A stretch of DNA of 64,000 bases from Candidatus Magasanikiibacteriota bacterium (GTDB taxonomy: Bacteria; Patescibacteriota; Patescibacteriia; Magasanikbacterales; GWA2-37-8). Below are positions 1 to 60,423 of this stretch, piece after piece (positions within the stretch are counted from its first letter, which is position 1; each line of letters begins with the position of its first letter). The notes beneath the pieces are model-generated. The model saw nothing but the letters and a program-made list of their open reading frames with translations. It ran no database searches and was not told where the DNA came from. The stretch lies in assembly GCA_036744835.1 (NCBI GenBank), contig DAIOHD010000001.1, positions 736,064 to 800,063 on the forward strand, written 5' to 3'. A program made the position numbers and the translations under genes.

Positions 1-392
1 CCACAGATCAATCCTTCGTGATATTGACGCAATAGTTCTTTGTCCATCCTGGGTTTATAATAAAACCCTTCCAAGTGAGCAAGCGATGAAAGTTTCATCA
101 AGTTTTTATAACCTGTATAATTTTCCGCTAACAATAGAATATGAAAATATTTATCCTGAGGATTTTTTTCAAAACGTGATCCACTGGCAATATACCCTTC
201 CATCCCAATGATTGGTTTGATTTCTTCTTTGAGACAAGCTTCATAAAATTCAATTGCGCCATACATATTGCCGTGATCAGTCAGAGCCAACGCCGAAAAA
301 CCGCGTTTCTTCGCGGTCTTTACCAATTCTTTGATTTTTGGCAGTCCGTCCAAAAGCGAGTAGTGGCTATGGACGTGGAGGTGGGTAAACAC
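1..392 (-). CDS. dnaE: DNA polymerase III alpha subunit, N-terminal PHP domain; 5' end only, gene continues upstream of window
   Basis: Reverse-strand translation begins (GTG at 390-392) VFTHLHVHSHYSLLDGLPKIKELVKTAKKRGFSALALTDHGNMYGAIEFYEACLKEEIKPIIGMEGY..., the classic DnaE PHP-domain start (HLHVHS..YSLLDG..ALTDHGN). Confidence 0.8.
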   Translation of the reverse strand, partial: MFTHLHVHSHYSLLDGLPKIKELVKTAKKRGFSALALTDHGNMYGAIEFYEACLKEEIKPIIGMEGYIASGSRFEKNPQDKYFHILLLAENYTGYKNLMKLSSLAHLEGFYYKPRMDKELLRQYHEGLIC

Positions 393-436
393 AAAAATTA
401 TTTAAAATTCAAAATTTAATATTTAAAATTATAAAC

Positions 437-546
437 GAATGTCATTGCGAGACCCGAAGGGACGCTAAGCGTTCCGAAGGGTCGTGGCAATCCCACTACT
501 TTCTGAACTTCATGAGATTGCTTCGTCATTACATTCCTCGCAATGA
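437..546. repeat. GTCATT-family element copy 1: 11-bp terminal inverted repeat GTCATTGCGAG ... CTCGCAATGAC enclosing ~88 nt with CCGAAGGG direct repeats
   Basis: Perfect IR gtcattgcgag (437-447) / ctcgcaatgac (536-546). Reverse complement aligns with the copy at 2163-2253 (gtcattgcGaggaatgTaatgacgaagcaat...ttcagaaagTagtgggatt). Confidence 0.5.
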
Positions 547-920
547 CAGTAGTGTTCGGTTTATTTTTTTTAAAAAAATAAACCAAAAAGACCCTCCCTT
601 TGGTTGCCTTTATAATAACTTAAAAAACTGTCTTTGGCAACTGGATAAATTTCGTTTAATTTATTTAAAATCCGCCTTTTCCACAAACACTTCAACCTAT
701 AGGTTGAAGTGTTTGTTTTGGCTAAAATAAAGGGATTATTCCCTCCTCTTCCTCAAGAGGAGGGCTAGGGTGGAATTTTTTAAAAAGACTCTCCCCTAAC
801 CTCCGCCTTCATCCAAGCTCCGTTAAAGCTACGCTGGACTACGGACGGACAAGCTCTCTCTTACATAAAAGAGGGGAATAAAAAACCCGCGCAGATATGC
901 ACGGGGTATGAAAGAACTTT

Positions 921-1451
921 TTAAGATATACGACGGAGAAGTAGACCAAGATGATTCCAAAAATCATTCTCCAGCGGCCTATAGTTTTTGGTCCATTCGT
1001 ATTCTTCCTTCCTCACATCATAATAACAATCGTCAATATAATAAAGCATTTCAGAATCATGGCCTTCGCTATTATTCCAGTTTGTAAAAATAAAATAATA
1101 ACGATAAAAACCACCAGGAATATCTCGTTGATGTTCCAAGATATAATCAGCATCATCAGCACCAAGACAAGCATTCAACGCCCTTGCTCTCTTGATAACT
1201 TCGTAACCAGTGATGGGCTTTTCTTTATCCTTTAGATATGGGATAACTTCATAGACCCTGTCGCCAATTTTCATTTCAACTGGCAAGGTTTCATACTTTT
1301 TTTCAGCAAAAGTAAGCTTTTTGCAAAACTGTAAAACCTTTTCTCTGTTTTCTCTCTCGATCAGTTTTTGGGAATTTTTTTCTCCCAAATCATTAAAAAA
1401 AACATCAACCTCTTGTTTAGATAATTTTACTTCATCCATCAGTCTCTCCAA
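921..1451 (-). CDS. hypothetical protein (no recognisable domain)
   Basis: 176-aa ORF from track; ordinary codon composition; no motif recognised. Confidence 0.4.
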   Translation of the reverse strand: MERLMDEVKLSKQEVDVFFNDLGEKNSQKLIERENREKVLQFCKKLTFAEKKYETLPVEMKIGDRVYEVIPYLKDKEKPITGYEVIKRARALNACLGADDADYILEHQRDIPGGFYRYYFIFTNWNNSEGHDSEMLYYIDDCYYDVRKEEYEWTKNYRPLENDFWNHLGLLLRRIS

Positions 1452-1551
1452 ATCTTTTCAGAATTTATAAATAAAAGGAACAAATTTGTTGATTGCTTAT
1501 ATTATTACAATATAAAGGTTTTGTCAATATAACTTTAACGCTTTATAAAAA

Positions 1552-1585
1552 CCAAAACTCGCCATTTTCAGGCGAGCTTTTTATA
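1552..1585 (-). terminator. rho-independent terminator (ctcgcc-attttca-ggcgag flanked by A-run/T-run), downstream of the 1643-2029 gene
   Basis: 6-bp GC stem plus flanking A/T tracts read directly. Confidence 0.45.
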
Positions 1586-1642
1586 ATTTGGATATTTTTT
1601 TATTCGGAGTATTCGGATATAATTTGTAGATTCGGATTATAT

Positions 1643-2029
1643 TTATTTTTTCATCTTCTTCGCCACTTTCTTCACTTTCTTTTGCGCTACAGCCATAGCT
1701 CTATCCACCGCATCTTTGGCAACATCGCCAAAATCCTCCACTTTATCATCCATAAAATCTCTAGCTTTTTTGGTGATGAAATTTTTCACCATTCCACCGG
1801 TAGTTTCTCTAGCCATCCCAAGCAAACTAACTATCCCCTCTACTTTATCTTGGATGGAATTTATAGTGTCCGTAATTCTCTGAAGACGTAAACGAAATTC
1901 TTCTACAATTGTATTTACATTTTTCAAAATCCTGGCGGCGTAATAAAACATGTAACAAATAAACGCCGTAACCCAGATGATACAAAACGAAATGACGATA
2001 TATAAAATATCTTTTGAATTTTCTAACAT
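1643..2029 (-). CDS. membrane-anchored coiled-coil protein, DUF948-like architecture (single N-terminal TM, helical body, Lys-rich tail)
   Basis: N-terminal hydrophobic segment ILYIVISFCIIWVTAFICYMFYY followed by helical region. Resembles DUF948 proteins only by architecture. Confidence 0.45.
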   Translation of the reverse strand: MLENSKDILYIVISFCIIWVTAFICYMFYYAARILKNVNTIVEEFRLRLQRITDTINSIQDKVEGIVSLLGMARETTGGMVKNFITKKARDFMDDKVEDFGDVAKDAVDRAMAVAQKKVKKVAKKMKK

Positions 2030-2107
2030 AGATCCTCCTTATTAAATTTTAATTATATTTAGATTATAACATTTTTTAAAATATTCGACAAGTAATTTGT
2101 TTAAAAT

Positions 2108-2300
2108 AACTCAAAACTCAAATGTCAAATCTCAAAACTACAATTTAAAACCTTAAAACCCTGTCATTGCAAGGAATGAAATGACGAAGCAATACCACAA
2201 AATTCAGAAAGCAGTGGGATTACTTCATCCGCTTTGCGGATTCGTAATGACACTTATCGTTAGTTTTGACATTTAAGGTTGTGGTTTTAACTTTTGAGAT
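2108..2300. repeat. MITE-like element copy A (composite): arms homologous to copies at 7847-7962 and 20487-20584, with a GTCATT-family element (2163-2253) nested in the core
   Basis: Left arm aactcaaaactcaaatgtcaaatctcaaaac matches copy B left arm. Right arm tagttttgacatttaagg..ttttgagatt is its inverted counterpart. Core replaced by gtcattgcaagg...cgtaatgacac. Confidence 0.55.
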
Positions 2301-2304
2301 TAAT

Positions 2305-4767
2305 CTAATTTCTAATCTCTGCCCCAAACTTATCTTTCAATATTTTCACTATCTCCCCCATCACATCATCCACCTCTTCGTTCTTCAAAGTACGAGTGGA
2401 ATCGGAAAAAACAAAATGATACGCCATACTTTTAAATCCCTCTTTGACATGTTCGCCTTCATAAACATCAAACAATTCCACGAATTTCAAAATCGGTGAA
2501 ATATTTTGCAAAGATTTTAAAATTTCTTGATGTGTAACTTTTTTTTCTGCCACAAAAGCCAAATCACGAGTAGGTTCTGGAAATTGAGATAATGTTTGAT
2601 AAATAAAATCTTTTTTGGTTTTCAAAATATCTCGCAGATCGCTGAGATTTATTTCTACCACTCCAACTCTATCATTCAAATCCCATTTTTTGGCAGTGAG
2701 TGGATTGAGCTCATATACAAAACCTATTTTTTGCTCTTGCACCATCATCTCCCCGGCTCTGCCTGGATGCATATAACCTTTGATTTCTTTAATTTCTCTT
2801 AAATCAAAATTGAGTTGCAAATTTTCCATCACTTTTTCCAAAACCAAACGCGCTTTGATAAAACCGTTGTCACTTTTTTTCTCATAATTTATCGCGGTCA
2901 AGAAAACATCCTGACGTGGTAAAAGCTCATCTTCATTAGAAATTTCTCTTGGCCCCGGTAATTCAGATAAATATGTTTTTCCAATTTCAAAAATATCCAC
3001 CCGATCAAAATTTTCCATATTCTTTTGGACATTTTCCAATAAGTTTGGTAACAATTCTCGACGTAAATAAGGTTTTTCACTAGACAAAGGATTATCTAGT
3101 TCCAAATATTTATTTTTATCTTCACCCAAACGATCTATTTGCAAACCACTAACAAAAGAATAATTATCAACTTCATCGTAAACCAATTCTTTGGTCAAAA
3201 TATTTCGCAAATTGTGTTCCAAATCGCGTAAAATATTTTTTTCTGGAGGAGTAATTTCAAACTCCGGCATAGTGCTTTCGATTTTATCATAACCATAAAT
3301 CCTACCAACTTCTTCAATCAAATCTTCAGAAAGAGATATGTCTTTGGTAGCGCGCCAAGTCGGTATTTTGACACTCAATCCGTCTTTGCCTTTTTCTTTA
3401 ACTTCAAAACCCAGTCTTTGCAAGATACTGATGATTTCTTTTTTCTCAATTTGCACTCCAAGTTTTTTACAAATATCGCTCATGCTAGTTTGTAGCGGTC
3501 CAGTAGCTAGGTGGAAGTTCTTTTTATCTTCTACATTACTTATCACTTTGGCCTCAGAACAAAGCTCCAGCACCATCTCCACCGCTTTTTTCAAAGCTAT
3601 TTCCGCCATATTGGGGTCCAGGCTTTTTTCAAAACGAGCAGAGGAATCCGTGCGACTATCATAATGTAACGCGGTTTTACGCACACAAACTGGATCAAAA
3701 TTCGCAGCTTCAAAAATAATCTCTGTGGTATTGTCATTTATCCCACTATAAAATCCGCCCATCACCCCAGCAAGCGCGATAGGTTTTTCATCATCTGCAA
3801 TAACCAAATCGTTTTCCGTCAAAGATAATTCTTTTTCATCCAACAATTTGAATTTTTCTTTGTCAGTTGCTGTGCGAACAATGATGTGTTTTTGATTTTT
3901 GTTTTTTGTTTGGAGAGTTTGAGCGTCAAATGCATGAAGTGGTTGTCCCAAATCAAACATTATATAGTTAGTAATATCAACAATATTATTGATACTGCGC
4001 AAACCGATAGATGACAGCGCTCTTTGTAACCAGAGAGGCGACGGGCCAACTTGCACTCCGCTTATCGCTACAGCCATATAGCGCGGACAAAGCGGTTCAT
4101 CCTCCACTGTAACTTTCAATTTTATTTCTTTGCCCGGAGTTATTTCTTTTGTTTCGTAAGCACCAAATTCACGAGGAAAAAGCACAGCCACTTCGCGAGC
4201 GATACCATAATGTCCCCAGAGATCAGGACGATTGGAAAGAGATTTGTTGTCAATTTCCAAAATCACATCGTCTAATCCAAGAGCTTTTTTCAAATCCACC
4301 CCAACTTTCAAATTTAGCATGGTCAAATCCAAAATTTCTTTTTCATCTTTGAGCGGAAACATTTCAGTCAATCCGATTTCGCTCCCCGCACAAATCATGC
4401 CATAGGAATCTATGTCTCTGATTTTGGTCGGTACGATTTCCACCAACTCCCCCTCGCCGTGCCAACGAACTTTAGCACCTACTTTGGCCACTGCTACGAG
4501 CATGTCAGTAGTAACGTTACTGCCACCACAAACAATCTGAACTTTCTCTTTTCCCAAATCTACTTGGCAAAGTTTCAATTTATCAGCGTTGGGATGTTTA
4601 TCGGCTTTAAGCACCTTACCCACTACAATATTTTCTAAATTATCACCTTGTTTTATAATATTTTCCACTTCTACTGTACTCAATTTCAATTTCTCCGCCA
4701 CTATTTCGGGGGTGATGGAGTCAGGGATGGTAACGTATTTTTTCAGCCAATTGTATGAAATTAACAT
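2305..4767 (-). CDS. pheT: phenylalanine--tRNA ligase beta subunit
   Basis: 820 aa; MLISYNWLKKYV start, B3/4 and tRNA-binding regions, C-terminal FDVYEG..SMAY motif typical of PheT. Confidence 0.95.
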   Translation of the reverse strand: MLISYNWLKKYVTIPDSITPEIVAEKLKLSTVEVENIIKQGDNLENIVVGKVLKADKHPNADKLKLCQVDLGKEKVQIVCGGSNVTTDMLVAVAKVGAKVRWHGEGELVEIVPTKIRDIDSYGMICAGSEIGLTEMFPLKDEKEILDLTMLNLKVGVDLKKALGLDDVILEIDNKSLSNRPDLWGHYGIAREVAVLFPREFGAYETKEITPGKEIKLKVTVEDEPLCPRYMAVAISGVQVGPSPLWLQRALSSIGLRSINNIVDITNYIMFDLGQPLHAFDAQTLQTKNKNQKHIIVRTATDKEKFKLLDEKELSLTENDLVIADDEKPIALAGVMGGFYSGINDNTTEIIFEAANFDPVCVRKTALHYDSRTDSSARFEKSLDPNMAEIALKKAVEMVLELCSEAKVISNVEDKKNFHLATGPLQTSMSDICKKLGVQIEKKEIISILQRLGFEVKEKGKDGLSVKIPTWRATKDISLSEDLIEEVGRIYGYDKIESTMPEFEITPPEKNILRDLEHNLRNILTKELVYDEVDNYSFVSGLQIDRLGEDKNKYLELDNPLSSEKPYLRRELLPNLLENVQKNMENFDRVDIFEIGKTYLSELPGPREISNEDELLPRQDVFLTAINYEKKSDNGFIKARLVLEKVMENLQLNFDLREIKEIKGYMHPGRAGEMMVQEQKIGFVYELNPLTAKKWDLNDRVGVVEINLSDLRDILKTKKDFIYQTLSQFPEPTRDLAFVAEKKVTHQEILKSLQNISPILKFVELFDVYEGEHVKEGFKSMAYHFVFSDSTRTLKNEEVDDVMGEIVKILKDKFGAEIRN

Positions 4768-7100: not shown

Positions 7101-7265
7101 AATAATTTAAGAAATTTAAAAAATTCAAAAGATTTAAGAAATTAAAAAACAATCTTTTAAATCTATTAAATCTTTTTAATCTTTTGAATATTGTTTCTTG
7201 CCTATTTCAGACAATACGGTATAATAAAACAACTTAACAAAAGTTAATTTATTATTTTAACCTAT

Positions 7266-7846: not shown

Positions 7847-7962
7847 AAACTCAAAACTCAAATGTCAAAAGTCAAAACTTTGGTGTCCCTGCGGGACAAT
7901 TTAATTAGACATCGCGAAGCGATACTTTAGTTTTGAGATTTGCATTTTGAGATTTGAGATTT
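7847..7962. repeat. MITE-like element copy B (~116 bp) with imperfect terminal inverted repeats and internal gtccc..gggac hairpin
   Basis: Aligns along its length with 20487-20584: ...aaaagtcaaaactt(t/c)ggtgtccc[hairpin]gcgaagcgatacNNtagttttgagatttgagattt. Confidence 0.6.
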
Positions 7963-7969
7963 AATTTTT

Positions 7970-8866
7970 ATGTATAACGAAATTTCTTCCAACAAACGTA
8001 AATCCGTCTTTTTGATGATGATATTTATCGCATTTATTATTTTAATTGGCTATGTTTTTGATCTTGCTTATGGCAATCAAAACGGAATTTCCGGAATATT
8101 TATTGCAATTGTTTTTTCTTTGGGGATGACGGCTGTTTCTTATTTTTCTGGTGATAAAATTGCGCTCAGTACTACCGGAGCAAAACTCGTGGCTCATGAT
8201 GACAATAAATATTATTATCATTTAGTAGAAAATCTTTGCATTGCCAGTGGTACCCCGATGCCAAAACTTTATATTATAGAAGATCAAGCGATAAACGCTT
8301 TTGCTACTGGTCGCAAACCCGAAACCGCTTCTATCGCTGTGACTCGCGGAGCATTAGAAAAACTCACCAACGAAGAATTGGAAGGCGTGTTGGCTCACGA
8401 ACTGTCTCATATCAAAAATTACGACATTCGTTTTATGATGTTAGTAGCAGTATTAGTCGGCACTATCGCGATTTTTTCAGATATGATGATACGCTCCACT
8501 TTTTTTCGTAGAGGTAATAATGATAGAAATGGCGGGAGCAATCAATTGGCCGCTGTATTTATGCTTGTCGGAATTATTTTGGCCATACTTTCTCCAATAA
8601 TCGCCGAGCTTATCAAACTAGCAATCTCTCGCCAACGCGAATATCTCGCTGACGCTTCCGGCTCACTTCTAACTCGTTATCCTGAAGGATTGGCTTCTGC
8701 TTTAGAAAAAATATCAAGAGAAAATCGCCCCATGCAAAAAGCATCTTCGGCTACTGCCCATCTTTTCATTGCATCACCGTTTAGCGGTAAAAAAATTTCC
8801 TCTATGTTTTCCACTCACCCGCCGGTAGAAGAGAGAGTAAAAAGATTAAGAATGATGGGAAGTTAA
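7970..8866 (+). CDS. htpX: zinc metalloprotease HtpX (M48)
   Basis: HELSHIKNYD zinc motif, four TM segments, C-terminal HPP..ERV motif. Confidence 0.9.
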   Translation: MYNEISSNKRKSVFLMMIFIAFIILIGYVFDLAYGNQNGISGIFIAIVFSLGMTAVSYFSGDKIALSTTGAKLVAHDDNKYYYHLVENLCIASGTPMPKLYIIEDQAINAFATGRKPETASIAVTRGALEKLTNEELEGVLAHELSHIKNYDIRFMMLVAVLVGTIAIFSDMMIRSTFFRRGNNDRNGGSNQLAAVFMLVGIILAILSPIIAELIKLAISRQREYLADASGSLLTRYPEGLASALEKISRENRPMQKASSATAHLFIASPFSGKKISSMFSTHPPVEERVKRLRMMGS

Positions 8867-8884
8867 AAATTAATTTTAAATAAA

Positions 8885-10324: not shown

Positions 10325-10582
10325 CTATCTTACCGGTCTGAAAGATGGAATTTTTCTCTCCCATCTTTCCGTGATTTTACCGAATTTCAATACGCAAATG
10401 AAAATAACCTGAAACAGAAAACCCAGACAAAAACCTAAGAAAGCTTCAAACCGTTTTTTCATAAAAATCTCCCTGTTTTGGTTAAAAGGACCGGCAATAT
10501 TATAGCATAAAAAAGCCAATTTGTCAACCCGGCTTCGTCCGCCAGCTGGCGGACTACGCCGGACAAGGTCTTTATTTATCAA
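10325..10582 (-). CDS. possible small membrane protein (likely starting at internal MKKRFEAF...; ~45 aa)
   Basis: Short hydrophobic ORF with its own downstream terminator; weak. Confidence 0.2.
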   Translation of the reverse strand: MINKDLVRRSPPAGGRSRVDKLAFLCYNIAGPFNQNREIFMKKRFEAFLGFCLGFLFQVIFICVLKFGKITERWERKIPSFRPVR

Positions 10583-10624: not shown

Positions 10625-11986
10625 TTATTTTTCTATTATTTCTGTAATCTCAGCGATTTTTTCTTTAACAATTTTTTCCCCTACCCCCTCCAAATTCAAC
10701 CGCAACAACGATTCTGTATTGCTCGCCCGGACATTAAACCAAAAATCAGGATATTCAAAAGTCAAACCGTCCAAATCAGAAATCTCAGCGTCCGCAAATT
10801 TTTCTTTGAGTTTTTGCATTACCACATTTTTGTCCTCAACTTTGAAATTTATTTCTCCAGAGTGAAAATATTTTTTCAGCGGTTTTACATAATCTGCCAA
10901 AGTGATATTTTTTTCTGAAAGTTCTTGCAATAATTTCAAAGTCACCACCATTGGGGCTTCAAAAACACCATAAGGAAATTTGACGAAAAAATGTCCGGAT
11001 GATTCACCGCCAAAAACCGCTCCGGTATCAAGCATCTGTTTTTTGATAAGTGAATGTCCTACCCTAGTCACACTTGGCACTCCCCCGTTTTGTAAAATCA
11101 TATCGCGAGTAATTTTTCCCGGACGGATATCATAACAAATTGTTGCGCCCGGATTATCACGCAAGAATAATTCTGCCATAATTCCGCGCAAAATAGCGGG
11201 TTCCACCAATTCACCGGCATTATCAATAAAAAATATTCTATCACCATCACCGTCAGTTGCTATACCCAAATCTGCTTTTTCTGCCAAAACACGTTTTTTC
11301 AAATCCGCAATGTTTTCTTCTTTATATGGGTCCGCTTCGTGAGCTGGAAATGTACCATCCAAATCAAAGTTCATTTTGATAAGTTCTATTTGTGGCAAAT
11401 CAGCAAATAACTCTGTCAAATATTGCGCCCCCATGGCATTGGCTGCGTCAGCCACGATTTTCATGGGTTTAATTTTTTTCAAATCTGCAAATTTTTCTTC
11501 TTCTTTAGCCTGGGTAAATAGAATTTCTTCTTTTGAAATTACATTTCCCTTGTTTTCTGAGACAAAAAACTCGTTCTGTTCAACTATTTTTTGTAACTCT
11601 TCCATACCATTGCCTTGACCAAAAGGTTTAGCACTTTCGCGCACTAGTTTTATCCCATTATACTGAGCCGGATTGTGAGAAGCAGAAACCATCAAACCGC
11701 CATCATAACCAAAATAAGAAACGGCAAAATAAAAAGTTGGGGTGGAAACCAAACCAACATCAATTATCCTAACTCCGCTTTCAACCAAACCTTCAATCAC
11801 TTGTTTTTTTAAGCTTGGCGAGGACATCCTCATGTCAGTGCCTACCACAATAGTAAGTTGCTCTTTATCTAGCTCTTTTTTACGCATCAAAGCAAAGGCT
11901 TGAACGATTTTTTTGGCTAATTCTTCGTTTAATTCATCCGGGTAAATACCACGAATATCGTAAGCTTTGTAAATTGACATAAACAT
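10625..11986 (-). CDS. phosphoglucomutase/phosphomannomutase family protein (alpha-D-phosphohexomutase)
   Basis: Active-site SASHNPAQYNGIK, metal-binding DGDGDR, 453 aa four-domain layout. Confidence 0.85.
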   Translation of the reverse strand: MFMSIYKAYDIRGIYPDELNEELAKKIVQAFALMRKKELDKEQLTIVVGTDMRMSSPSLKKQVIEGLVESGVRIIDVGLVSTPTFYFAVSYFGYDGGLMVSASHNPAQYNGIKLVRESAKPFGQGNGMEELQKIVEQNEFFVSENKGNVISKEEILFTQAKEEEKFADLKKIKPMKIVADAANAMGAQYLTELFADLPQIELIKMNFDLDGTFPAHEADPYKEENIADLKKRVLAEKADLGIATDGDGDRIFFIDNAGELVEPAILRGIMAELFLRDNPGATICYDIRPGKITRDMILQNGGVPSVTRVGHSLIKKQMLDTGAVFGGESSGHFFVKFPYGVFEAPMVVTLKLLQELSEKNITLADYVKPLKKYFHSGEINFKVEDKNVVMQKLKEKFADAEISDLDGLTFEYPDFWFNVRASNTESLLRLNLEGVGEKIVKEKIAEITEIIEK

Positions 11987-12066: not shown

Positions 12067-12528
12067 ATGCAAAAAATTTTAACTCTTTGTGTTGTTCATG
12101 ACGAAGGAAGGGTACTTTTGGGTATGAAAAAAAGAGGGTTTGGTATGGACCGTTGGAACGGTTTTGGCGGTAAAGTTCAACTAGGTGAAACTATAGAACA
12201 AGCAGCTATTCGTGAAACACAAGAGGAAGCCGGCATAACTCCGACCAAAATGGAATTGGTCGGTAAACTAAATTTCAAATTTCAAGATGGCGTAAGCGAA
12301 GAGATGGAAGTTTCAGTTTTTTCCGTGACCGATTTTGATGGTATCCCGAGCGAAACCGAGGAAATGCGTCCTCATTGGTTTAATAAAAGTGAAATACCTT
12401 ATGACAAAATGTGGGCTGATGATAAATATTGGCTACCACTGCTTTTCGCCGGTAAAAAATTTAAAGGCTTTTGTGAATATACAGACTACAACATTATGCT
12501 CAGCCATGAAATTGAGGAAATTATTTAA
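12067..12528 (+). CDS. NUDIX hydrolase (MutT / 8-oxo-dGTP diphosphatase-like)
   Basis: Nudix box GGKVQLGETIEQAAIRETQEEAGI. Confidence 0.85.
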   Translation: MQKILTLCVVHDEGRVLLGMKKRGFGMDRWNGFGGKVQLGETIEQAAIRETQEEAGITPTKMELVGKLNFKFQDGVSEEMEVSVFSVTDFDGIPSETEEMRPHWFNKSEIPYDKMWADDKYWLPLLFAGKKFKGFCEYTDYNIMLSHEIEEII

Positions 12529-12545: not shown

Positions 12546-12639
12546 GTCATGCTGAATTTATTTCAGCATCTCCCCGTACCGCATAAAGGGGGATCCCGAA
12601 ATCCTCCAGAGGCGGACAGACAAAAGTTCGGGATGACAC
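12546..12639. repeat. possible GTCATT-family-related structured element (gtcatgc...cgggatgacac) in the clpC leader
   Basis: Ends tgtcatgctgaa...ttcgggatgacac resemble the termini of the 30539-30618 element (..gcggggatgacac). Internal cccgaa..ttcggg stem. Confidence 0.3.
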
Positions 12640-12690: not shown

Positions 12691-15219
12691 ATGCATTTGT
12701 CCGAACGTTTTAGCAACCATCTCAAAAATGTTTTGGTCAAAGCCATACAGTTGGCTACAGAATTAAAACAAAAAGAGGTATCCCCGCTTCATCTTTTGTT
12801 TGCCCTTTTGAAAGAAAAAGGTTCTTTGGCTCATGAAATTTTAACTCGTAATAAAATAAAAGAGTCAGTTTTAGAAAATGCCATTTTAAACATCCCAGGA
12901 ATTGATGGGCAGATTTCCGAACAAATACCAGTTACCAATATCACTTCCCAAGCTCAATTAGCTCCGCTTTCACCCATAGCCAAAGGTATTTTAGAAAAAG
13001 CTTTTCTAATCGCTTCCGAAAATAATCATAATTTTTTGGGCACCGAACATTTACTTTTGTCCATTTTACAAACAAACGATTCCACTGTTACAGAAATATT
13101 GCAACAAAGCAGTGTTCTAAAAAATGATTTGGAAGATCAATTAAAAAATATTTTGATGGGCACTTCTCAGTTTCCAAAAATAAATGAAATATCAGATACT
13201 CTCAATAAACTTTCAGAAAGTTTTGAAGGCGAAGCACCGCTGTCTGAATTTGCCGCAAAAAAAATAAAAAATGGTATAGGACAAAAAAAAGAATCCGCTT
13301 TAGAATTTTTTGCCACTGATTTAACTAATCTTGAAATTCAAAAAAATATTGACCCTGTTATTGGTCGAGAAAAAGAAATTGAACGTTTAGTTCAAATCAT
13401 TTGTCGACGTACCAAAAATAATCCGATTTTACTCGGTGATCCCGGGGTTGGAAAAACAGCCATCATAGAAGGTTTGGCCAAAAAAATAACCGAGGGTTCT
13501 GTGCCGGACTTATTAAAACATAAAAAAATATATGCACTGGATATGGGGCTACTTATCGCCGGCACTATGTATCGAGGTGAATTTGAAGCTAGACTACGTC
13601 AGGTTATAGAGGAAACTCTACAAGATTCCAACATTATTTTATTTATTGATGAATTACATAATATCGTCGGAGTCGGTAGTTCACAAGGCAGTATGGACGC
13701 AGCCAACATTTTGAAACCAGCTTTGGCGCGTGGACAAATTCGTTGTATCGGGTCAACCACTCCAGGAGAATTTAAAAAATTTATTGAAAGTGATGCGGCA
13801 TTAGAAAGACGTTTCCAGCCTATCATTGTCAAAGAACCAAGCGTAGAAGAAACCGTGCAAATACTTTCCGGACTTAAAAATAACTATGAGAAATACCATC
13901 AAGTAAAGATAAGCGAGAGTGCTATAACAGCAGCGGTAAAACTTTCTAATCGTTATATCAATGACAAGTTTCTACCGGATAAAGCTATCGATCTTATTGA
14001 TGAAACCGCTTCAGCCAAAAGACTAAGTTTTGGTATTGATCCAAAAAAAAATCGTTTATGGCAACTAAATCGTAAACTAAATAAAATAATTTTTGACAAA
14101 GAAAAGGCGGCATTGGATAACAATTTTGGTTTGGCCATGACTATGAAAGAAGATGAAATTAAATTGGCACACGAAATAAAATCATTGGAAAAAGAGATTT
14201 CTCAACAAAAAGATAAATATCTTGGAACAGTCACGGAAAAAGATATTTTAAATACTATCGCCAAAATAATCAACACTGAACCGAACGAATTGATTTTGGA
14301 CAATCGCGACCGTTTTGAAAAAATAAAAATCAATTTAAAAAAACAACTAATAGGGCAAGATGAAGTTGTGGATGAAGTGATCAAAACAATAGAAAAAGCA
14401 CAATTGGGTTTAACTGACCCGCAGAAACCGCTAGGATCATTTATGTTTATTGGAATTTCCGGCACCGGTAAAACCGAATTGAGCAAACTCTTGGCCAAAG
14501 AACTTTACCAAAATACCGATTCTCTCATCAAACTTGATATGAGTGAATTTAATGAAAGTTTTGGTGTATCCAAACTACTTGGCTCACCAGCCGGTTATAT
14601 CGGATATAAAGAAACTAACCCATTTACCGATAAGCTAAAAATGAATCCTTATAGCGTAATTTTGTTTGATGAAATAGATAAAGCCCATCGCGATGTTACT
14701 AAACTACTTTTACAATGTTTGGAAAGCGGCTCTATCGCCGACTCGACCGGCAAGAAAATTTCTCTAAAACATGCTATAATAATATTAACTACTTCGATAT
14801 TTACTGCAGAGCTATACAAAGGTGTGGTCGGTTTTGGTGAAAAAAATAAAAATAACGAAGAAGTTAAAACAAAAATAACGGAAAAACTCAAGGAATATTT
14901 TTCTCCAGAACTCATCAACCGCTTAGACAAAATCTGTCTTTTTGGAGAACTGAATCAAAAACAACTGGAAAAAATAGCTCGATTACAAATAGATATTTTT
15001 AATGAACGCTTAAAAAATTATAAAACTAAAGTCACTGCTTCGGAAAAAATAATTAATTTTATTGTAAACCAACTTAAACCAGAAAAATATAATGCTCGCG
15101 AATTACGCGCCTTACTGGAAAATAAGATAGAAAATTTAATGACTGAAATAATATTGAAGGGAAAAATAAAAAAACAATACACTTTAAGATTGCAAAAAGA
15201 AAAATTGGTTATAATCTAA
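12691..15219 (+). CDS. clpC: ATP-dependent Clp chaperone, ClpC/ClpB-family AAA+ ATPase (Clp_N repeats plus two nucleotide-binding domains)
   Basis: Clp_N repeats at N-terminus. D1 Walker A GDPGVGKTAIIEGLA, Walker B ILFIDELH. D2 GISGTGKTEL, ILFDEIDKAH; sensor NARELRA. Confidence 0.85.
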   Translation: MHLSERFSNHLKNVLVKAIQLATELKQKEVSPLHLLFALLKEKGSLAHEILTRNKIKESVLENAILNIPGIDGQISEQIPVTNITSQAQLAPLSPIAKGILEKAFLIASENNHNFLGTEHLLLSILQTNDSTVTEILQQSSVLKNDLEDQLKNILMGTSQFPKINEISDTLNKLSESFEGEAPLSEFAAKKIKNGIGQKKESALEFFATDLTNLEIQKNIDPVIGREKEIERLVQIICRRTKNNPILLGDPGVGKTAIIEGLAKKITEGSVPDLLKHKKIYALDMGLLIAGTMYRGEFEARLRQVIEETLQDSNIILFIDELHNIVGVGSSQGSMDAANILKPALARGQIRCIGSTTPGEFKKFIESDAALERRFQPIIVKEPSVEETVQILSGLKNNYEKYHQVKISESAITAAVKLSNRYINDKFLPDKAIDLIDETASAKRLSFGIDPKKNRLWQLNRKLNKIIFDKEKAALDNNFGLAMTMKEDEIKLAHEIKSLEKEISQQKDKYLGTVTEKDILNTIAKIINTEPNELILDNRDRFEKIKINLKKQLIGQDEVVDEVIKTIEKAQLGLTDPQKPLGSFMFIGISGTGKTELSKLLAKELYQNTDSLIKLDMSEFNESFGVSKLLGSPAGYIGYKETNPFTDKLKMNPYSVILFDEIDKAHRDVTKLLLQCLESGSIADSTGKKISLKHAIIILTTSIFTAELYKGVVGFGEKNKNNEEVKTKITEKLKEYFSPELINRLDKICLFGELNQKQLEKIARLQIDIFNERLKNYKTKVTASEKIINFIVNQLKPEKYNARELRALLENKIENLMTEIILKGKIKKQYTLRLQKEKLVII

Positions 15220-20458: not shown

Positions 20459-20488
20459 AAAAATCCGCCAAAAGCGGATTTTTTTTAA
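20458..20488. terminator. bidirectional terminator between convergent radA and recG (aaatccgc-caaaa-gcggattt + T8)
   Basis: 8-bp stem, T-run on plus strand, A-run on minus-strand side. Confidence 0.6.
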
Positions 20489-20584
20489 ACTCAAAAGTCA
20501 AAACTTCGGTGTCCCGATTAAATCGGGACGATTTTTATTATAAATATTGCGAAGCGATACAATAGTTTTGAGATTTGAGATTTA
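20487..20584. repeat. MITE-like element copy C
   Basis: aaactcaaaagtcaaaacttcggtgtcccgattaaatcgggacg...gcgaagcgatacaatagttttgagatttgagattta; homologous to 7847-7962. Confidence 0.6.
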
Positions 20585-22705: not shown

Positions 22706-22813
22706 AATTAATGCTAATATTATAGCATAAAAAACTGAAATAAAAAGTTCGATTCCTACCGATACAATACACATAATTAAAATACTGCCCTTGTGGGCAG
22801 TATTTTAATTATG

Positions 22814-22885
22814 TGATCTCGCTAGGAATCGAACCTAGATTGCAAGCTCCGCAAGCTTGCGTCCTATCCGTTGAACGACGAGACC
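22814..22885 (-). tRNA. tRNA-Arg, anticodon GCG as read (72 nt, 4-nt variable loop, no encoded CCA)
   Basis: Manual cloverleaf on reverse complement: acceptor ggtctcg/cgagatc, D gttc-aacggata-ggac, anticodon arm caagc-ttGCGga-gcttg, T ctagg-ttcgatt-cctag. Anticodon call depends on this fold. Confidence 0.6.
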
Positions 22886-27415: not shown

Positions 27416-28495
27416 GTGTATTTACTATTATCATTTTTCCCCAAAATCACCTATTCCCGCTTTAAAAAGGCGGTGAATTATTTTATTACTCCGGAAAATA
27501 TTTGGGAATCTGAAGTGTCTGACTTTATGAGTGCAGGTTGGGAAGAAAATGTATCCGCAGAATTTATTGCTTGGAAAGATAATCAAACAAAAGAAAAACT
27601 TCAAGAAATTTTGGACAAAGAAAATGTCCGAATTATAAATATAAATGACGAAGAATATCCGGAGTTACTCAAAAAAATTCCGGACCCACCTTTTACTCTT
27701 TTTGTACGTGGAAAAATACCACCCCTGACACCCAGAAGTTTGAGCGTGGTTGGTACACGCAAACATAGTGTTTATGCTAAAATAGCCACGGAAAAAATTG
27801 TTAGCGATTTGGCAAGACGCGGTTTTGTAATAGTTTCCGGACTGGCTCTCGGGATAGATGCCCTGGCTCACGAATACGCTCTAAAAGCTGGTGGAAAAAC
27901 TGTAGCTTTTTTGGGTAGCAGTGTAGCATCGCGCGAAATTTATCCGGTAAATAATCAAAAATTGGCTAATGAAATAGTAGCTTCTGGCGGAGCGGTAATT
28001 TCCGAATATCCACCTGGGTTTTTACCTACACTCTACTCTTTTCCCATGAGAAATCGCTTGATTGCCGGTTCTACTCCTGGAACACTAGTTATTGAGGCCC
28101 CAATGGGCTCAGGATCGCTAATTACAGCAGAAAATGCTAAAGAATACAGCCGAGTAATAATGTGCATTCCACACCCCATAAATTCAATTTTTGGCACTGG
28201 TGGTAATTTATTATTACAAAATGATGCGAAATTAATACTGAAAGCAGAAGATATTTTGGAAATTCTCAATCTAAATTTGGCTATAAAACAAACCACAGAA
28301 CAAACAGTAATGAATTTCAGCCCTGATGAAGAAAAAATATTGAATATTATGTCAACTGAGCCAAAAAATATTGATTTTATCATCCGCGAGTCCGGTCTTC
28401 CCGGTCCTCAGATTAGTGCTATAATGGTATTTTTGGAAATGAGAGGAATTATCAAAAATGCTGGGAATATGAATTTTTACAAAAATATCGTTTAA
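27416..28495 (+). CDS. dprA: DNA-processing protein DprA (Smf)
   Basis: Rossmann core SLSVVGTRKHSVYA...VIVSGLALGIDALAHEYALKAGGKTVAFLGSSV and C-terminal winged-helix-like region. Confidence 0.85.
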   Translation: MYLLLSFFPKITYSRFKKAVNYFITPENIWESEVSDFMSAGWEENVSAEFIAWKDNQTKEKLQEILDKENVRIININDEEYPELLKKIPDPPFTLFVRGKIPPLTPRSLSVVGTRKHSVYAKIATEKIVSDLARRGFVIVSGLALGIDALAHEYALKAGGKTVAFLGSSVASREIYPVNNQKLANEIVASGGAVISEYPPGFLPTLYSFPMRNRLIAGSTPGTLVIEAPMGSGSLITAENAKEYSRVIMCIPHPINSIFGTGGNLLLQNDAKLILKAEDILEILNLNLAIKQTTEQTVMNFSPDEEKILNIMSTEPKNIDFIIRESGLPGPQISAIMVFLEMRGIIKNAGNMNFYKNIV

Positions 28496-28505
28496 AATTT
28501 GAGAC

Positions 28506-28541
28506 TAAAAAATGACAGAAATTATTCTGTCATTTTTTTAT
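28506..28541. terminator. bidirectional terminator (atgacagaa-atta-ttctgtcat, A5 upstream and T7 downstream) between convergent dprA and the 28592-30487 gene
   Basis: 9-bp perfect stem. Confidence 0.6.
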
Positions 28542-28591
28542 TTATTTTATAAATATCAAAGTGTCGAAAAAGTGATTAAGAAAATCAAAAA

Positions 28592-30487: not shown

Positions 30488-30538
30488 AGAAAACACTAAT
30501 TTAAAAACACGAATTAACGCAAATAAAAAGTAGAGAAT

Positions 30539-30618
30539 GTCATTCCCGCATAAACAAAAATCCAGTGGCAATTACTAACTTTAACTTTCCTGGATCCCCG
30601 CCTTCGCGGGGATGACAC
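30539..30618. repeat. GTCATT-family element copy 3 (gtcattcccgc ... gcggggatgacac terminal inverted repeat)
   Basis: 11-bp IR; internal ccagtggcaatt resembles cagtgggatt of copies 1 and 2. Confidence 0.45.
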
Positions 30619-30708
30619 GCTGTAAAAAGCAAGTTCTTTTTTACTTATTCCATAATAGCTAATATTTTAACTTTTGTCCAATAAAATAATCAATAAATAC
30701 CTTATAAA

Positions 30709-30737
30709 TTGACTATTTTATACATATATAGTAGAAT
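30709..30737 (+). promoter_or_regulatory. sigma70-type promoter for topA: TTGACT-17 bp-TAGAAT
   Basis: -35 at 30709-30714, -10 at 30732-30737, ATG at 30755. Confidence 0.45.
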
Positions 30738-34827: not shown

Positions 34828-34857
34828 TCCCGGTTAAATCGGGATTATTTTTTTATT
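34824..34857 (+). terminator. rho-independent terminator of rel (aatcccg-gttaaat-cgggatt + T-run)
   Basis: 7-bp stem followed by TTTTTTTATT. Confidence 0.6.
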
Positions 34858-34891
34858 AAAAAGATTGCAAAAATTACAAAGATTTAAAAGA

Positions 34892-36733: not shown

Positions 36734-36815
36734 GCCCTGGTGGCGGAATTGGTAGACGCGCACGACTCAAAATCGTGTACCGCAAGGTGTGAGAGTTCGA
36801 TTCTCTCCTAGGGCA
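36734..36815 (+). tRNA. tRNA-Leu, anticodon CAA as read (class II, long variable arm)
   Basis: gccctggtggcggaattggtagacgcgcacgactCAAaatcgtgtaccgcaaggtgtgagagttcgattctctcctagggca; cloverleaf with variable stem taccgcaaggtg. Confidence 0.75.
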
Positions 36816-36817
36816 CT

Positions 36818-36856: not shown

Positions 36857-36861
36857 AGGGT

Positions 36862-36985
36862 TCCCCGGGAGAGAATCGAACTAGGAAAGGGAGAAAACGT
36901 GAGTTTTCTCTTGCTGAGGAAAGGTATTGGAAAACCCGAAGGTTTTCCAAGGAGGAAGCCGAAGGCTGACGACGTGAGTCTTCTC
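36862..36985 (-). ncRNA. candidate structured RNA (~125 nt): closing helix ggagagaa/ttctctcc, three internal hairpins, minus-strand cUUCGg tetraloop. 3' end carries an inverted 15-nt copy of the tRNA-Leu T-arm/acceptor (agttcgattctctcc)
   Basis: Hairpins ttggaaaacc-ttcg-ggttttccaa, gagaaaac-tcac-gttttctc and agcc..ggct on the minus strand. GC-rich island in AT-rich spacer. Overlapped only by an implausible ORF (36848-37156). Confidence 0.4.
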
Positions 36986-44762: not shown

Positions 44763-44801
44763 AAACTATTTATTATTAAGTAATTTTGCTAACAATTTCT
44801 T

Positions 44802-60312: not shown

Positions 60313-60319
60313 AAATAAA

Positions 60320-60420
60320 TTTATTTAAGAAATTTAAGAGATTTAAGAAATTTAAGAGATTGAAAGATTTTTATAAAAACAAATAATTTTTTAAATCTTT
60401 TTAATCTTTAAATCTTTTAA
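60320..60420. repeat. AT-only palindromic spacer: tandem aagaaatttaagagattt x2 mirrored by tttaaatctttttaatctttaaatctttt
   Basis: Read directly; related word set (aaagatttaa / ttaaatcttt) also at 7101-7180 and 34860-34892. Confidence 0.4.
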
Positions 60421-60423
60421 ATA

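What the first reader, a model, noticed from the sequence alone, without database searches (positions are those of the whole stretch)
437..546. GTCATT...AATGAC-bounded structured element family (about four copies)
Elements of about 80-110 nt are bounded by 10-11-bp inverted repeats starting GTCATT and ending AATGAC(AC): 437-546 (gtcattgcgag/ctcgcaatgac, perfect 11 bp), 2163-2253, 30539-30618 (gtcattcccgc/gcggggatgac) and possibly 12546-12639. Copies 1 and 2 are about 85% identical over their first ~55 nt when one is reverse-complemented (..gaatg(t/a)aatgacgaagcaat..ttcagaaag(t/c)agtgggatt). All copies are intergenic, often in 5' leader positions. The family could be a small RNA or regulatory RNA, or a mobile hairpin element.
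Basis: seen in the sequence. Interest (0 to 1): 0.6.

Follow-up and report, generated by a model that had tools for sequence, protein, structure and literature searches.

The report
Paired GTCAT hairpin DNA repeats
The GTCAT...ATGAC-bounded elements are real, but they are most likely small mobile palindromic DNA repeats rather than RNA genes: each is two back-to-back hairpin units of the kind recently tied to Ssn single-strand DNA nucleases, here in a variant form in a probable CPR bacterium.

Summary
Copies 1 and 2 are true homologues (87% identity over 61 nt). Copies 3 and 4 share only the architecture.

Each element is a tail-to-tail pair of hairpin units built as (T)GTC | AT-stem | variable inner hairpin | stem-AT | C-tail. 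This is the build of the NTS/SRM repeats that GIY-YIG Ssn ssDNA nucleases bind and cut (Chenal 2025). Compensatory changes support the hairpin within each arm, not pairing across the two arms.

Related metagenome contigs (82-95% identical, syntenic) show presence/absence at every site that could be compared. In four of them a copy sits in frame inside a phosphoglucomutase-family gene. This argues for a mobile DNA element and against an sRNA or leader RNA.

All five Ssn-like small GIY-YIG genes I looked up elsewhere, including one from CPR WWE3, have GTCAT units of the same build within about 150 nt.

No Ssn-like gene was found in the window or in about 218 kb of relatives. The only GIY-YIG gene nearby is tied to a different hairpin type (GCTNAGC). 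The enzyme link for this genome is therefore inferred.

Verdict: a new variant of a known kind, of moderate interest.

The parts
440..548 (.). Copy 1: class I composite of 107 nt plus flanking T/A, made of two tail-to-tail GTCAT units. It lies 49 nt upstream of the dnaE-like start codon (392, minus strand).
   Evidence: Perfect 11-bp inverted repeat. Folding z = -5.3 on the plus strand and -4.2 on the minus strand. Orthologous copies are in L127, L128, L134 and L154.
441..496 (+). Copy 1, arm B unit: GTC-ATTGC-[GAG + inner hairpin + GTG]-GCAAT-CCCAC.
   Evidence: Structural scan. The same arm with a shorter inner hairpin is seen in at least 10 relatives.
459..475 (.). Nested GCTNAGC-type hairpin (GGGACGCTAAGCGTTCC) inside arm B. 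It is part of 20 extra nt that make copy 1 longer than the 87-nt form.
   Evidence: Comparison of the 107-nt and 87-nt forms. The same hairpin type forms an array in front of a tRNA-linked GIY-YIG gene in relatives.
512..547 (-). Copy 1, arm A unit: GTC-ATTGC-GAGGAATGTAATGACGA-AGCAAT-CTCAT.
   Evidence: The loop GAATGTAATGA is the A/T-shifted, pair-preserving version of GAGCGNAGCGA, the commonest loop type in viral contigs.
2162..2252 (.). Copy 2: class I composite of 89 nt, located between pheT (2305-4767, minus strand) and the gene at 1643-2029 (minus strand).
   Evidence: 87% identical to copy 1 over 61 nt. Absent from the orthologous spacer of the closest relative, L127. Nested in the AT-rich palindrome 2108-2157/2261-2301.
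2163..2198 (+). Copy 2, arm A unit: GTC-ATTGC-AAGGAATGAAATGACGA-AGCAAT-ACCAC. The base after the stem is A, not C.
2214..2251 (-). Copy 2, arm B unit: GTC-ATTAC-GAATCCGCAAAGCGGATGAA-GTAAT-CCCAC. Its stem is a compensated variant, ATTAC/GTAAT.
12546..12637 (.). Copy 4: class II-like composite between the NUDIX gene (12067-12528) and the ClpB-like gene (12691-15219).
   Evidence: Absent at the orthologous site in L126, L132 and L139.
12546..12575 (+). Copy 4, left unit: GTC-ATGCTGAA-TTTAT-TTCAGCAT-CTCCCC.
   Evidence: 8-bp perfect stem.
12588..12637 (-). Copy 4, right unit: GTC-ATCCCGAA-(26-nt loop)-TTCGGGAT-CCCCC.
   Evidence: 8-bp perfect stem.
30539..30616 (.). Copy 3: class II composite between the divergent genes 28592-30487 (minus strand) and topA (30755-32959, plus strand).
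   Evidence: The whole 2.2-kb segment 28494-30725 is missing in relative L125.
30539..30568 (+). Copy 3, left unit, decayed: GTCATTCCCGC-ATAA-ACAAAAATCCAG. The expected 3' half-stem GCGGGAAT reads ACAAAAAT, which is four G-to-A changes. The tail ATCCAG is kept.
   Evidence: Read directly from the sequence. Compared with intact units such as GTCATTCCCGCctccgaGCGGGAATCCAG in L125.
30589..30616 (-). Copy 3, right unit: canonical NTS-like SRM, TGTC-ATCCCCGC-GAAG-GCGGGGAT-CCAGG.
   Evidence: The only match in the window to the published SRM pattern, against 0.07 expected. Also found by the structural scan.

Best explanation
Each element is a tail-to-tail pair of short DNA hairpin repeats of the Ssn-related-motif (SRM/NTS) type.

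**Unit anatomy.** A unit reads 5'-(T/C)GTC, then a stem that begins with AT, then a freely variable inner part, then the complementary stem ending in AT, then C and a short C-rich tail. The inner part is usually a small hairpin, often closed by a G-N-A triloop. Two units in opposite orientation, joined through their tails, give the GTCAT...ATGAC-bounded element of 70-110 nt.

**What they are.** They are dispersed, recently mobile, non-coding DNA repeats, comparable to REP/BIME, Neisseria dRS3/NTS and Rickettsia palindromic elements. They are not RNA genes.

**Inferred mechanism.** When the DNA is single-stranded (during replication, repair or uptake), each unit folds on its own strand. A small single-domain GIY-YIG nuclease of the Ssn type then recognises it through the stem and the C after it, and cuts next to the GTC. 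That enzyme would be encoded elsewhere in the genome and act in trans. The repeats would owe their spread and turnover to it.

**Shown here:**
- the unit architecture;
- covariation supporting the within-arm hairpins;
- the wide distribution of the motif;
- presence/absence polymorphism among relatives;
- an in-frame insertion into a coding sequence in relatives;
- the physical association of same-build units with Ssn-like genes in other lineages.

**Inferred:** that an Ssn-type enzyme acts on the copies in this genome, and that it drives their mobility.
For: **1. Unit invariants mirror what SsnA needs.** GTC before the palindrome, C right after it, and a free loop are the constraints reported for SsnA (PMC11893778). 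Cleavage depends on the 3 nt upstream of the palindrome, binding depends most on the C after it, and loop identity is dispensable. All 7 intact window units have GTC followed by an AT-started stem, and 6 of 7 have the C.

**2. One unit matches the published pattern.** Unit 30590-30617 matches the SRM pattern, against 0.07 expected.

**3. The stems covary.** Stem pairs seen are ATTGC/GCAAT, ATTAC/GTAAT, ATCGC/GCGAT, ATTCCCGC/GCGGGAAT, ATCCCTGC/GCAGGGAT, ATGCTGAA/TTCAGCAT and ATCCCGAA/TTCGGGAT.
- On 18 distinct composites, the within-arm pairing is 100% paired and has 2 pairs with double changes. None of 500 shuffles reached the observed paired percentage, number of double-changed cells or covariation score (44 of 500 reached 2 double-changed pairs).
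- The cross-arm pairing has no double changes and 5 broken cells.

**4. The inner hairpins change sequence but stay hairpins.** The loop GCGNAGC occurs with all four N. Its A/T version ATGWAAT keeps both pairs.

**5. Mobility.**
- Copy 2 is absent in L127, which is 93-95% identical.
- Copy 4 is absent in L126, L132 and L139.
- Relatives carry copies where the window has none: L125 between the pth gene and the next gene, L125 at window 34826-34888, and L151 at window 60320-60419.
- L126, L132, L139 and L148 carry a 93-nt copy in frame in the phosphoglucomutase-family gene, in the linker between domains I and II, and the ORF stays intact.

**6. Breadth.**
- 34 metagenome loci carry the lineage-specific form.

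**7. Enzyme link.** 5 of 5 Ssn-like 90-127-aa GIY-YIG genes (P0145 from CPR WWE3, P0228, P0154, P0121, P0179) have GTCAT units within about 150 nt. These often lie on both sides, often as tail-to-tail pairs, and carry the same loops GAGCGNAGCGA and GAGGAGCGNAGCGACGA.
Against: - No Ssn-like gene is present in the 64-kb window (motif scan; Pfam on 18 ORFs). None was found in about 218 kb of relatives' loci either.
- The only GIY-YIG gene near the window lies about 5.6 kb beyond its left end in relatives. It belongs to another subfamily (36% identity to P0145; closest solved structures are UPF0213 proteins). In 4 contexts it is flanked by GCTNAGC hairpins and a tRNA gene, not by GTCAT units.
- The class I units (ATTGC stem, long interrupted loop) do not match the published SRM pattern. 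I did not see an ATTGC-stem unit directly next to an Ssn-like gene.
- I could not run CDD, so assigning P0145 and P0228 to cd10448 rests on size, single-domain build and flanking repeats.
- No cleavage or transcription data exist for this lineage.
- The way the pairs move is unknown. The filled/empty site comparisons are not clean.
Confidence: 0.65

Rival explanations
1. It is a structured small RNA or cis-regulatory leader RNA family. The terminal GTCAT/ATGAC repeat would form the closing stem of a folded transcript that regulates the downstream gene.
For: - The sequences fold significantly better than shuffles on either strand (z from -2.9 to -5.3).
- All four window copies are intergenic. 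Copy 1 lies 49 nt upstream of the dnaE start codon.
- In viral contigs, single units sit right before the ribosome-binding site and ATG of structural genes.
Against: - No Rfam match was found, even at E <= 10, over copies 1 and 2.
- Both orientations occur relative to the flanking genes.
- Copies are present or absent at orthologous sites of relatives 82-95% identical.
- One copy is translated in frame inside a phosphoglucomutase-family gene.
- The flanking genes are unrelated: dnaE, pheT, clpB and topA.
- The covariation supports two separate arm hairpins rather than the closing stem.
- G-N-A triloops closed by C-G are a hallmark of stable DNA minihairpins (my own knowledge: Hirao, Yoshizawa and co-workers).
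Confidence: 0.07
2. It is a classical MITE: a deletion derivative of an insertion sequence. Its terminal inverted repeats (TGTCATTGCGAG) would be bound by a DDE transposase encoded elsewhere.
For: - It has terminal inverted repeats of 11-12 bp, a small size (70-110 nt), no coding capacity, a dispersed distribution and presence/absence polymorphism.
- In-frame insertions into genes are known for MITE-like elements such as RPEs (PMC10969869).
Against: - No target-site duplication is visible in 12 different flanks. Only T...A adjoins the ends.
- No transposase is present in the window.
- No transposase or nuclease ORF lay between nearby units in the loci fetched up to that point.
- The same GTCAT-hairpin units also occur singly and in same-orientation tandem arrays. 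That is REP-like, not MITE-like.
- The 'terminal repeat' is simply the 5' part of each unit. Its stem partner lies within the same arm.
Confidence: 0.1
3. It is a REP/BIME-type repeat served by a RAYT (an IS200/IS605-like Y1 transposase) rather than by a GIY-YIG nuclease.
For: - The architecture is the same: an oriented hairpin with a conserved 5' tetranucleotide.
- Inverted pairs form composite elements.
- There is no target duplication.
- The likely substrate is single-stranded DNA hairpins. The parallel is drawn in PMC11893778.
Against: - The conserved 5' motif is GTCA(T), not the GTAG/GTGG of REPs (my own knowledge: Nunvar 2010, Ton-Hoang 2012).
- No Y1 transposase was found in the window ORFs tested.
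- The genes seen flanked by same-build units are GIY-YIG genes.
Confidence: 0.05

Closest known systems
NTS / Ssn-related motifs (SRM) and the Ssn GIY-YIG ssDNA nucleases (Chenal et al., Nat Commun 2025, PMC11893778)
   Same: - The unit is oriented: (C/T)GTC, an AT-started palindrome, then C and a CYRG-like tail. The NTS reads CGTCATTCCCGCGMAVGCGGGAATCYRG.
- The loop is dispensable.
- The repeats are dispersed and mostly intergenic.
- Window unit 30590-30617 matches the published pattern.
- Same-build units flank Ssn-like genes.
   Different: - Class I units have a short 5-bp stem (ATTGC/GCAAT), then an internal loop and a second, variable hairpin. They fail the published pattern.
- Here the units are fixed as tail-to-tail pairs that behave as one mobile 87-107-nt element.
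- A copy is found in frame in a coding sequence. NTS lie inside genes only 2% of the time.
- The host is a probable CPR bacterium.
- No ssn gene has been seen in this lineage so far.
Neisseria dRS3 / NIME and Correia-type intergenic mosaics
   Same: - Short inverted-repeat elements cluster in intergenic DNA, and the dRS3 core lies inside the NTS (PMC11893778).
- The element end ATGACA can supply a -35-like hexamer, as in the weak match at 445-418 on the minus strand.
   Different: There is no sequence homology apart from the GTCAT..ATC frame. The organisation is also different, with no RS blocks.
REP/BIME with RAYT transposases
   Same: Both have an oriented hairpin with a conserved 5' motif, inverted pairs forming composites, no target duplication, and a presumed ssDNA substrate.
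   Different: The 5' motif is GTCA rather than GTAG. The associated gene family seen here is GIY-YIG, not an HUH/Y1 transposase.
Rickettsia palindromic elements (RPE)
   Same: Both are palindromic repeats that can sit in frame inside housekeeping genes without breaking the ORF (PMC10969869; here). Rickettsia is listed among the SRM-rich genera.
   Different: RPEs are about 150 bp and specific to Rickettsia. Sequence relatedness was not tested here.

Membership tests
Ssn-related motif (SRM/NTS) hairpin repeats | A conserved GTC (HGTCWY) immediately 5' of the palindrome, which gives the unit an orientation. | tested here: met
   All 7 intact window units and the decayed unit at 30539 start with (T)GTCAT. 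All 37 related instances whose 5' end is in the fetched sequence also do, although the search pattern did not include that end.
Ssn-related motif (SRM/NTS) hairpin repeats | A palindromic stem able to form a hairpin on one strand. | tested here: met
   Perfect stems of 5-8 bp. Within-arm pairs are 100% paired, with 2 compensated pairs. There are at least 11 different stem sequences.
Ssn-related motif (SRM/NTS) hairpin repeats | A cytosine immediately after the palindrome, the most critical base for SsnA binding. | tested here: met
   6 of 7 intact window units have the C. The exception is 2163-2198, which has A. C20 is at least 90% conserved in the 18-sequence alignment.
Ssn-related motif (SRM/NTS) hairpin repeats | A match to the published degenerate pattern HGTCWYN(0-2)YYVSBRHN(0-5)WNVSBRGN(0-2)RNCYNB. 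| tested here: inconclusive
   There is 1 match (30590-30617, minus strand) against 0.07 expected. The class I units (ATTGC stem, long loop) and the copy 4 units do not match.
Ssn-related motif (SRM/NTS) hairpin repeats | An Ssn (cd10448) GIY-YIG gene in the same genome, typically flanked by the repeats. | tested here: inconclusive
   None was found in the window or in about 218 kb of relatives. The complete genome was not available. In other lineages, 5 of 5 Ssn-like genes are flanked by same-build units.
Ssn-related motif (SRM/NTS) hairpin repeats | Binding and cleavage by Ssn as ssDNA only, and on one strand only. | not testable with these tools
   This needs biochemistry.
MITE (DDE-transposase derived) | Terminal inverted repeats plus fixed-length target-site duplications, with a parent IS that has the same ends. 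| tested here: not met
   Inverted repeats are present. No duplication is visible in 12 distinct flanks. No transposase or nuclease ORF lay between units in the loci fetched up to that point.
REP/BIME-RAYT | A GTAG-type 5' tetranucleotide and an associated Y1 (HUH) transposase gene. | tested here: not met
   The motif is GTCA, not GTAG. No such gene is among the window ORFs tested.
Known RNA families (Rfam 15) | A covariance-model match at the gathering score. | tested here: not met
   Only 3 tRNAs matched in the window. Over 1-3000 at E <= 10, nothing covers 441-547. One hit overlaps 2163-2251 (Plastid-psbA-3, 2179-2229, 21.9 bits against a gathering score of 48.4), far below threshold.
Intrinsic terminators | A G+C-rich hairpin followed by a T run. 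| tested here: not met
   The terminator scan of 1-2400 lists 4 sites, and none overlaps copy 1 or copy 2.

The most novel reading that the evidence does not exclude
The tail-to-tail GTCAT pairs may be non-autonomous mobile elements whose 'transposase' is a 90-aa single-domain GIY-YIG ssDNA nuclease. If so, Ssn plus SRM would be a previously unrecognised ssDNA cut-and-insert mobility system. It would be analogous to IS200/IS605 with REP but built on a different nuclease fold. It would be active in streamlined CPR genomes and able to place translatable 31-codon modules into essential genes.
Probability: 0.2. Interest if true: 0.75.

Novelty: new variant of a known kind. Interest (0 to 1): 0.45.

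Why it matters
- **Annotation.** These sequences give rise to spurious small ORFs, for example 512-730 in the window, 'MRLLRHYIPRNDS...'. Similar peptides such as '...LAMT' and '...RNDG' recur in many genomes in my experience. The finding gives these sequences a concrete identity as paired Ssn-type hairpin repeats.
- **Scope of the SRM class.** The published SRM pattern misses a large class: units with ATTGC-type stems and interrupted loops. That class is very common.
- **Genome turnover.** The repeats turn over quickly even in small, gene-dense, probably CPR genomes, and they can enter coding sequences in frame.
- **If the enzyme link holds.** Each stem variant would predict a new Ssn specificity, which is of practical interest for ssDNA tools.

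Tried and rejected
- **Rfam.** Searches at the gathering score and at E <= 10 found nothing relevant.
GTCATTSSSRR finds only the two ends of copy 1, so it is too narrow. A gapped version found nothing.
- **GIY-YIG motif scan.** The window gave no hit, and neither did the viral loci. The relatives gave one gene. I first took that gene for the partner enzyme and then rejected it. It is a different subfamily and is tied to tRNA genes and GCTNAGC hairpins, not to GTCAT units.
- **Genes bracketed by units.** Searching about 157 loci for recurring genes between units found only phage structural genes and housekeeping genes.
- **Genome-contig scan.** It gave only 3 loci, and the source genome is not among the species representatives.
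- **Exact-protein look-up of PheT.** It returned only a 2.5-kb contig with DNA, so the window could not be extended.
- **Literature string searches.** GTCATTGCGAG and related strings returned only primer coincidences. The string GTCATTCCCGC led to the Ssn paper.
- **MAFFT alignment of full composites (A2).** It misaligned the 107-nt forms. I replaced it with an anchored 49-column alignment.
- **Target-site duplications.** None were found.
- **Covariance model.** I did not build one, because BLAST and the structural scan already separated the classes.

Full report
**1. Checking the observation**

The four elements exist, but the coordinates need small corrections.
- Copy 1 runs 441-547. It has a perfect 11-bp inverted repeat GTCATTGCGAG/CTCGCAATGAC, or 12 bp counting T440/A548.
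- Copy 2 runs 2163-2251. It has 6 perfect bp, then wobble pairs and mismatches.
- Copy 3 runs 30539-30616. It has 11 bp with one G.T.
- Copy 4 runs 12546-12637. It has 9 of 11 positions complementary.

Copy 1 (reverse complement) and copy 2 are 87% identical over 61 nt, E = 1e-11. Copies 3 and 4 show no sequence similarity to them beyond the ends.

The signal is far above chance.
- Five strictly defined units are present, against 0.22 +/- 0.44 in 200 dinucleotide shuffles.
- There are 15 G/C-containing perfect 11-mer inverted repeats, against 1.1.
- All copies fold better than shuffles on both strands, with z from -2.9 to -5.3.
- All four are intergenic in the window.

**2. Anatomy**

Each element is two oppositely oriented units joined by their tails. 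A unit reads (T)GTC, then a stem starting with AT, then a variable middle, then the complementary stem ending in AT, then C and a C-rich tail.

Window units:

| Copy | Coordinates (strand) | Unit |
|---|---|---|
| 1 | 441-496 (+) | GTC-ATTGC-...-GCAAT-CCCAC |
| 1 | 512-547 (-) | GTC-ATTGC-GAGGAATGTAATGACGA-AGCAAT-C |
| 2 | 2163-2198 (+) | as the 512-547 unit, but the base after the stem is A |
| 2 | 2214-2251 (-) | stem ATTAC/GTAAT |
| 4 | 12546-12575 (+) | stem ATGCTGAA/TTCAGCAT |
| 4 | 12588-12637 (-) | stem ATCCCGAA/TTCGGGAT |
| 3 | 30589-30616 (-) | stem ATCCCCGC/GCGGGGAT, tail CCAGG |
| 3 | 30539-30568 (+) | decayed: 3' half-stem reads ACAAAAAT instead of GCGGGAAT (four G-to-A changes) |

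So the GTCAT...ATGAC boundary is simply the 5' end of one unit on each strand.

**3. The lead from the literature**

A full-text search for the end sequences found Chenal et al. 2025 (PMC11893778).
- They define the Neisseria NTS, CGTCATTCCCGCGMAVGCGGGAATCYRG, and a degenerate 'Ssn-related motif' (SRM).
- They show that SsnA, a 94-aa single-domain GIY-YIG protein (cd10448), binds the hairpin only as ssDNA and cuts just upstream.
- Cleavage depends on the three bases before the palindrome. Binding depends most on the C after it. The loop can be changed or extended.

These are exactly the invariant and the free positions of the window units. The published pattern hits 30590-30617 (minus strand) and nothing else, against 0.07 expected. 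The ATTGC-stem units ('class I') fall outside it.

**4. Related sequences**

Many hits have the same composite build in high-GC DNA: GTCATTGCGAG..CGAAGCAATCCAG-variable-CTGGATTGCTTCG..CTCGCAATGAC.
- The commonest loop is GAGCGNAGCGA, with all four N. The window's GAATGWAATGA is the A/T version that keeps both pairs of the GCGNAGC mini-hairpin. From my own knowledge, C-G-closed G-N-A triloops are the classic very stable DNA minihairpins.
- A lineage-specific pattern found 34 metagenome loci. These are 72-96% identical to the window in aligned blocks (mostly 82-95%) and syntenic with it.
- Thirty distinct class I composites share the constant parts but carry different inner hairpins, including swaps at one and the same locus (L146 and L156 against L125).
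- The source genome itself is not among the GTDB representatives.

**5. Which structure is selected**

I built an anchored 49-column alignment of 18 distinct composites and counted pairs for two alternative structures.
- The within-arm pairing is 100% paired. It has two pairs with double changes: ATTGC/GCAAT to ATTAC/GTAAT and to ATCGC/GCGAT. None of 500 shuffles reached the observed paired percentage, number of double-changed cells or covariation score.
- The cross-arm pairing, with the terminal repeat as a closing stem, has no double changes and five broken cells.

There are only two underlying events. Both favour independent unit hairpins, as an Ssn-type recognition would need.

**6. Mobility**

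- Copy 2 and its AT-rich flanks are missing from the orthologous spacer of the closest relative, L127 (93-95% identical).
- Copy 4 is missing in L126, L132 and L139.
- Relatives carry copies where the window has none: L125 between the pth gene and the next gene, L125 at window 34826-34888, and L151 at window 60320-60419.
- L126, L132, L139 and L148 carry a 93-nt copy inside the orthologue of the phosphoglucomutase-family gene (window 10625-11986). It lies in frame and replaces QNEFFVS with NMSLRDEGEAILRSSESSGIATSLSGLAMTI. The position is in the linker between Pfam domains I and II, and the 479-codon ORF stays intact.
- No target-site duplication is visible.

This behaviour fits a mobile DNA repeat and resembles Rickettsia palindromic elements (PMC10969869). 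It is hard to reconcile with an sRNA or leader.

**7. The enzyme question**

The window encodes no GIY-YIG protein or transposase.

Relatives have an 89-aa GIY-YIG gene about 5.6 kb beyond the window's left end. This gene is not the expected partner.
- Its family has 1152 hits, one named from Patescibacteria.
- In four different contexts it is found next to a tRNA gene and behind arrays of GCTNAGC hairpins, without GTCAT units.
- It is only 36% identical to the Ssn-like type.
- Its nearest solved structures are UPF0213 proteins.

It recovered more than 8000 proteins. All five I looked up are flanked within about 150 nt by GTCAT units. The five are P0145 'endonuclease [candidate division WWE3]', P0228, P0154, P0121 and P0179.
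- The units often lie on both sides of the gene, and often as tail-to-tail pairs.
- There are up to more than 25 units in 5.3 kb.
- They carry the same loops GAGCGNAGCGA and GAGGAGCGNAGCGACGA.
- The window's relatives also contain this exact ATTCT/ATCCT unit type (L129).

The unit type is therefore tied to Ssn-like genes by evidence gathered here. Whether this genome has such a gene remains open.

**8. Conclusion and comparison**

The elements are paired SRM-type hairpin DNA repeats. At the unit level they meet the defining features of SRMs: GTC, a palindrome and a following C. One unit also meets the published pattern.

They differ in several ways:
- the class I stem and interrupted-loop design;
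- fixation as a composite of about 87 nt;
- modular nested hairpins;
- entry into a coding sequence.

They are not MITEs in the DDE sense, because there is no duplication and no parent IS. They are not REPs, because the motif is GTCA rather than GTAG and no Y1 transposase was found. They are not a known RNA family, and they are not terminators.

I rate them a new variant of a known kind. Confidence is high that they are DNA-level mobile repeats. It is moderate that an Ssn-type nuclease is their partner in this genome.

Noticed in passing
L134 6945-7217 (minus strand), plus L128 and L154; about 5.6 kb beyond the window's left end. Also L159, L164 and L170.: An 89-aa GIY-YIG gene family lies next to a tRNA gene and is preceded by 2-5 hairpins with a GCTNAGC core. 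Examples are GGGACGCTTAGCGTCCC, AACGCTGAGCGTT and GTCCGCTAAGCGGAC. The family has 1152 hits, and this arrangement is seen in four unrelated neighbourhoods. It looks like a second, separate nuclease-plus-hairpin pairing.
   Followed up: partly
window 456-483: Copy 1 is 20 nt longer than the 87-nt form of relatives. The extra piece reads as a 12-nt palindrome AACGCTTAGCGT plus an 8-nt direct repeat CCCTTCGG, inside the inner hairpin of arm B. It is the same GCTNAGC hairpin type as above, so one hairpin repeat may have been inserted into another.
   Followed up: partly
window 2108-2157 / 2261-2301; 7847-7961; 20487-20581: An AT-rich palindromic repeat family (AACTCAAAACTCAAATGTCAAA... / ...TTTGAGATTTGAGATT) encloses copy 2. 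At the other two sites it encloses a different core (GGTGTCCC..GGGAC and CGCGAAGCGATAC). In L125 the whole block, including a GTCAT pair, sits at a locus that is empty in the window.
   Followed up: partly
window 7104-7192 and 60313-60422: A second AT-rich palindromic repeat family (ATTTAAGAAATTTAAGAGATT...). In relative L151 the 60320-60419 copy is replaced by a GTCAT pair of almost the same length.
   Followed up: partly
window 683-716, 741-764, 62337-62359; L126 5500-5700: More small hairpin repeat families lie in the spacer right of copy 1: CACTTCAACCTATAGGTTGAAGTG and CCCTCCTCTTCCTCAAGAGGAGGG followed by CTAGGGTGG. Relatives of these occur near 62340 and in an insertion of about 250 nt in L126 that the window lacks at 8866-8880.
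   Followed up: no
window 835-860 and 10531-10566: A shared motif GGACTACG(C/G)(C/A)GGACAAG sits inside hairpin-like sequence in two spacers. This may be another dispersed repeat.
   Followed up: no
window 36794-36816 vs 36860-36882; 22747-22834: Inverted partial copies of tRNA 3' ends lie next to tRNA-Leu (36734-36816) and tRNA-Arg (22813-22885). The first has 23 nt at 87% complementarity. They could be remnants of integration sites.
   Followed up: no
window 28494-30725: A 2.2-kb segment holding a gene of about 630 aa with no Pfam match (28592-30487, minus strand), plus copy 3, is absent from relative L125. There the flanking genes are only about 19 nt apart.
   Followed up: partly
window 445-418 (minus strand): The end of copy 1 (ATGACA) gives a -35-like hexamer, with AATATT 16 nt downstream, pointing at the dnaE-like gene. 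The match is weak (9 of 12).
   Followed up: no
window 44762-44802: Only 39 nt separate the S5-like and L15-like ribosomal protein genes, so there is no room for an L30 gene. Other clues are 35% GC and the Patescibacteria name on a homologue of the nearby GIY-YIG gene (P0055). From my own knowledge, CPR genomes lack L30, so this suggests a CPR/Patescibacteria genome. L122, a close match, is labelled Gammaproteobacteria in its MAG record, which is probably a binning error.
   Followed up: no
L002 7062, L004 2245, L009 4710 (viral contigs): Single GTCATTGCGAGGAGCGCAGCGACGAAGCAATC units sit directly in front of AAGGAGG-ATG of phage structural genes, in the gene's orientation.
   Followed up: no
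window 512-730 (plus strand): An ORF of 72 codons (MRLLRHYIPRNDS...) is produced by translating copy 1 and the spacer. It is a likely false gene call of a kind seen in many genomes.
   Followed up: no
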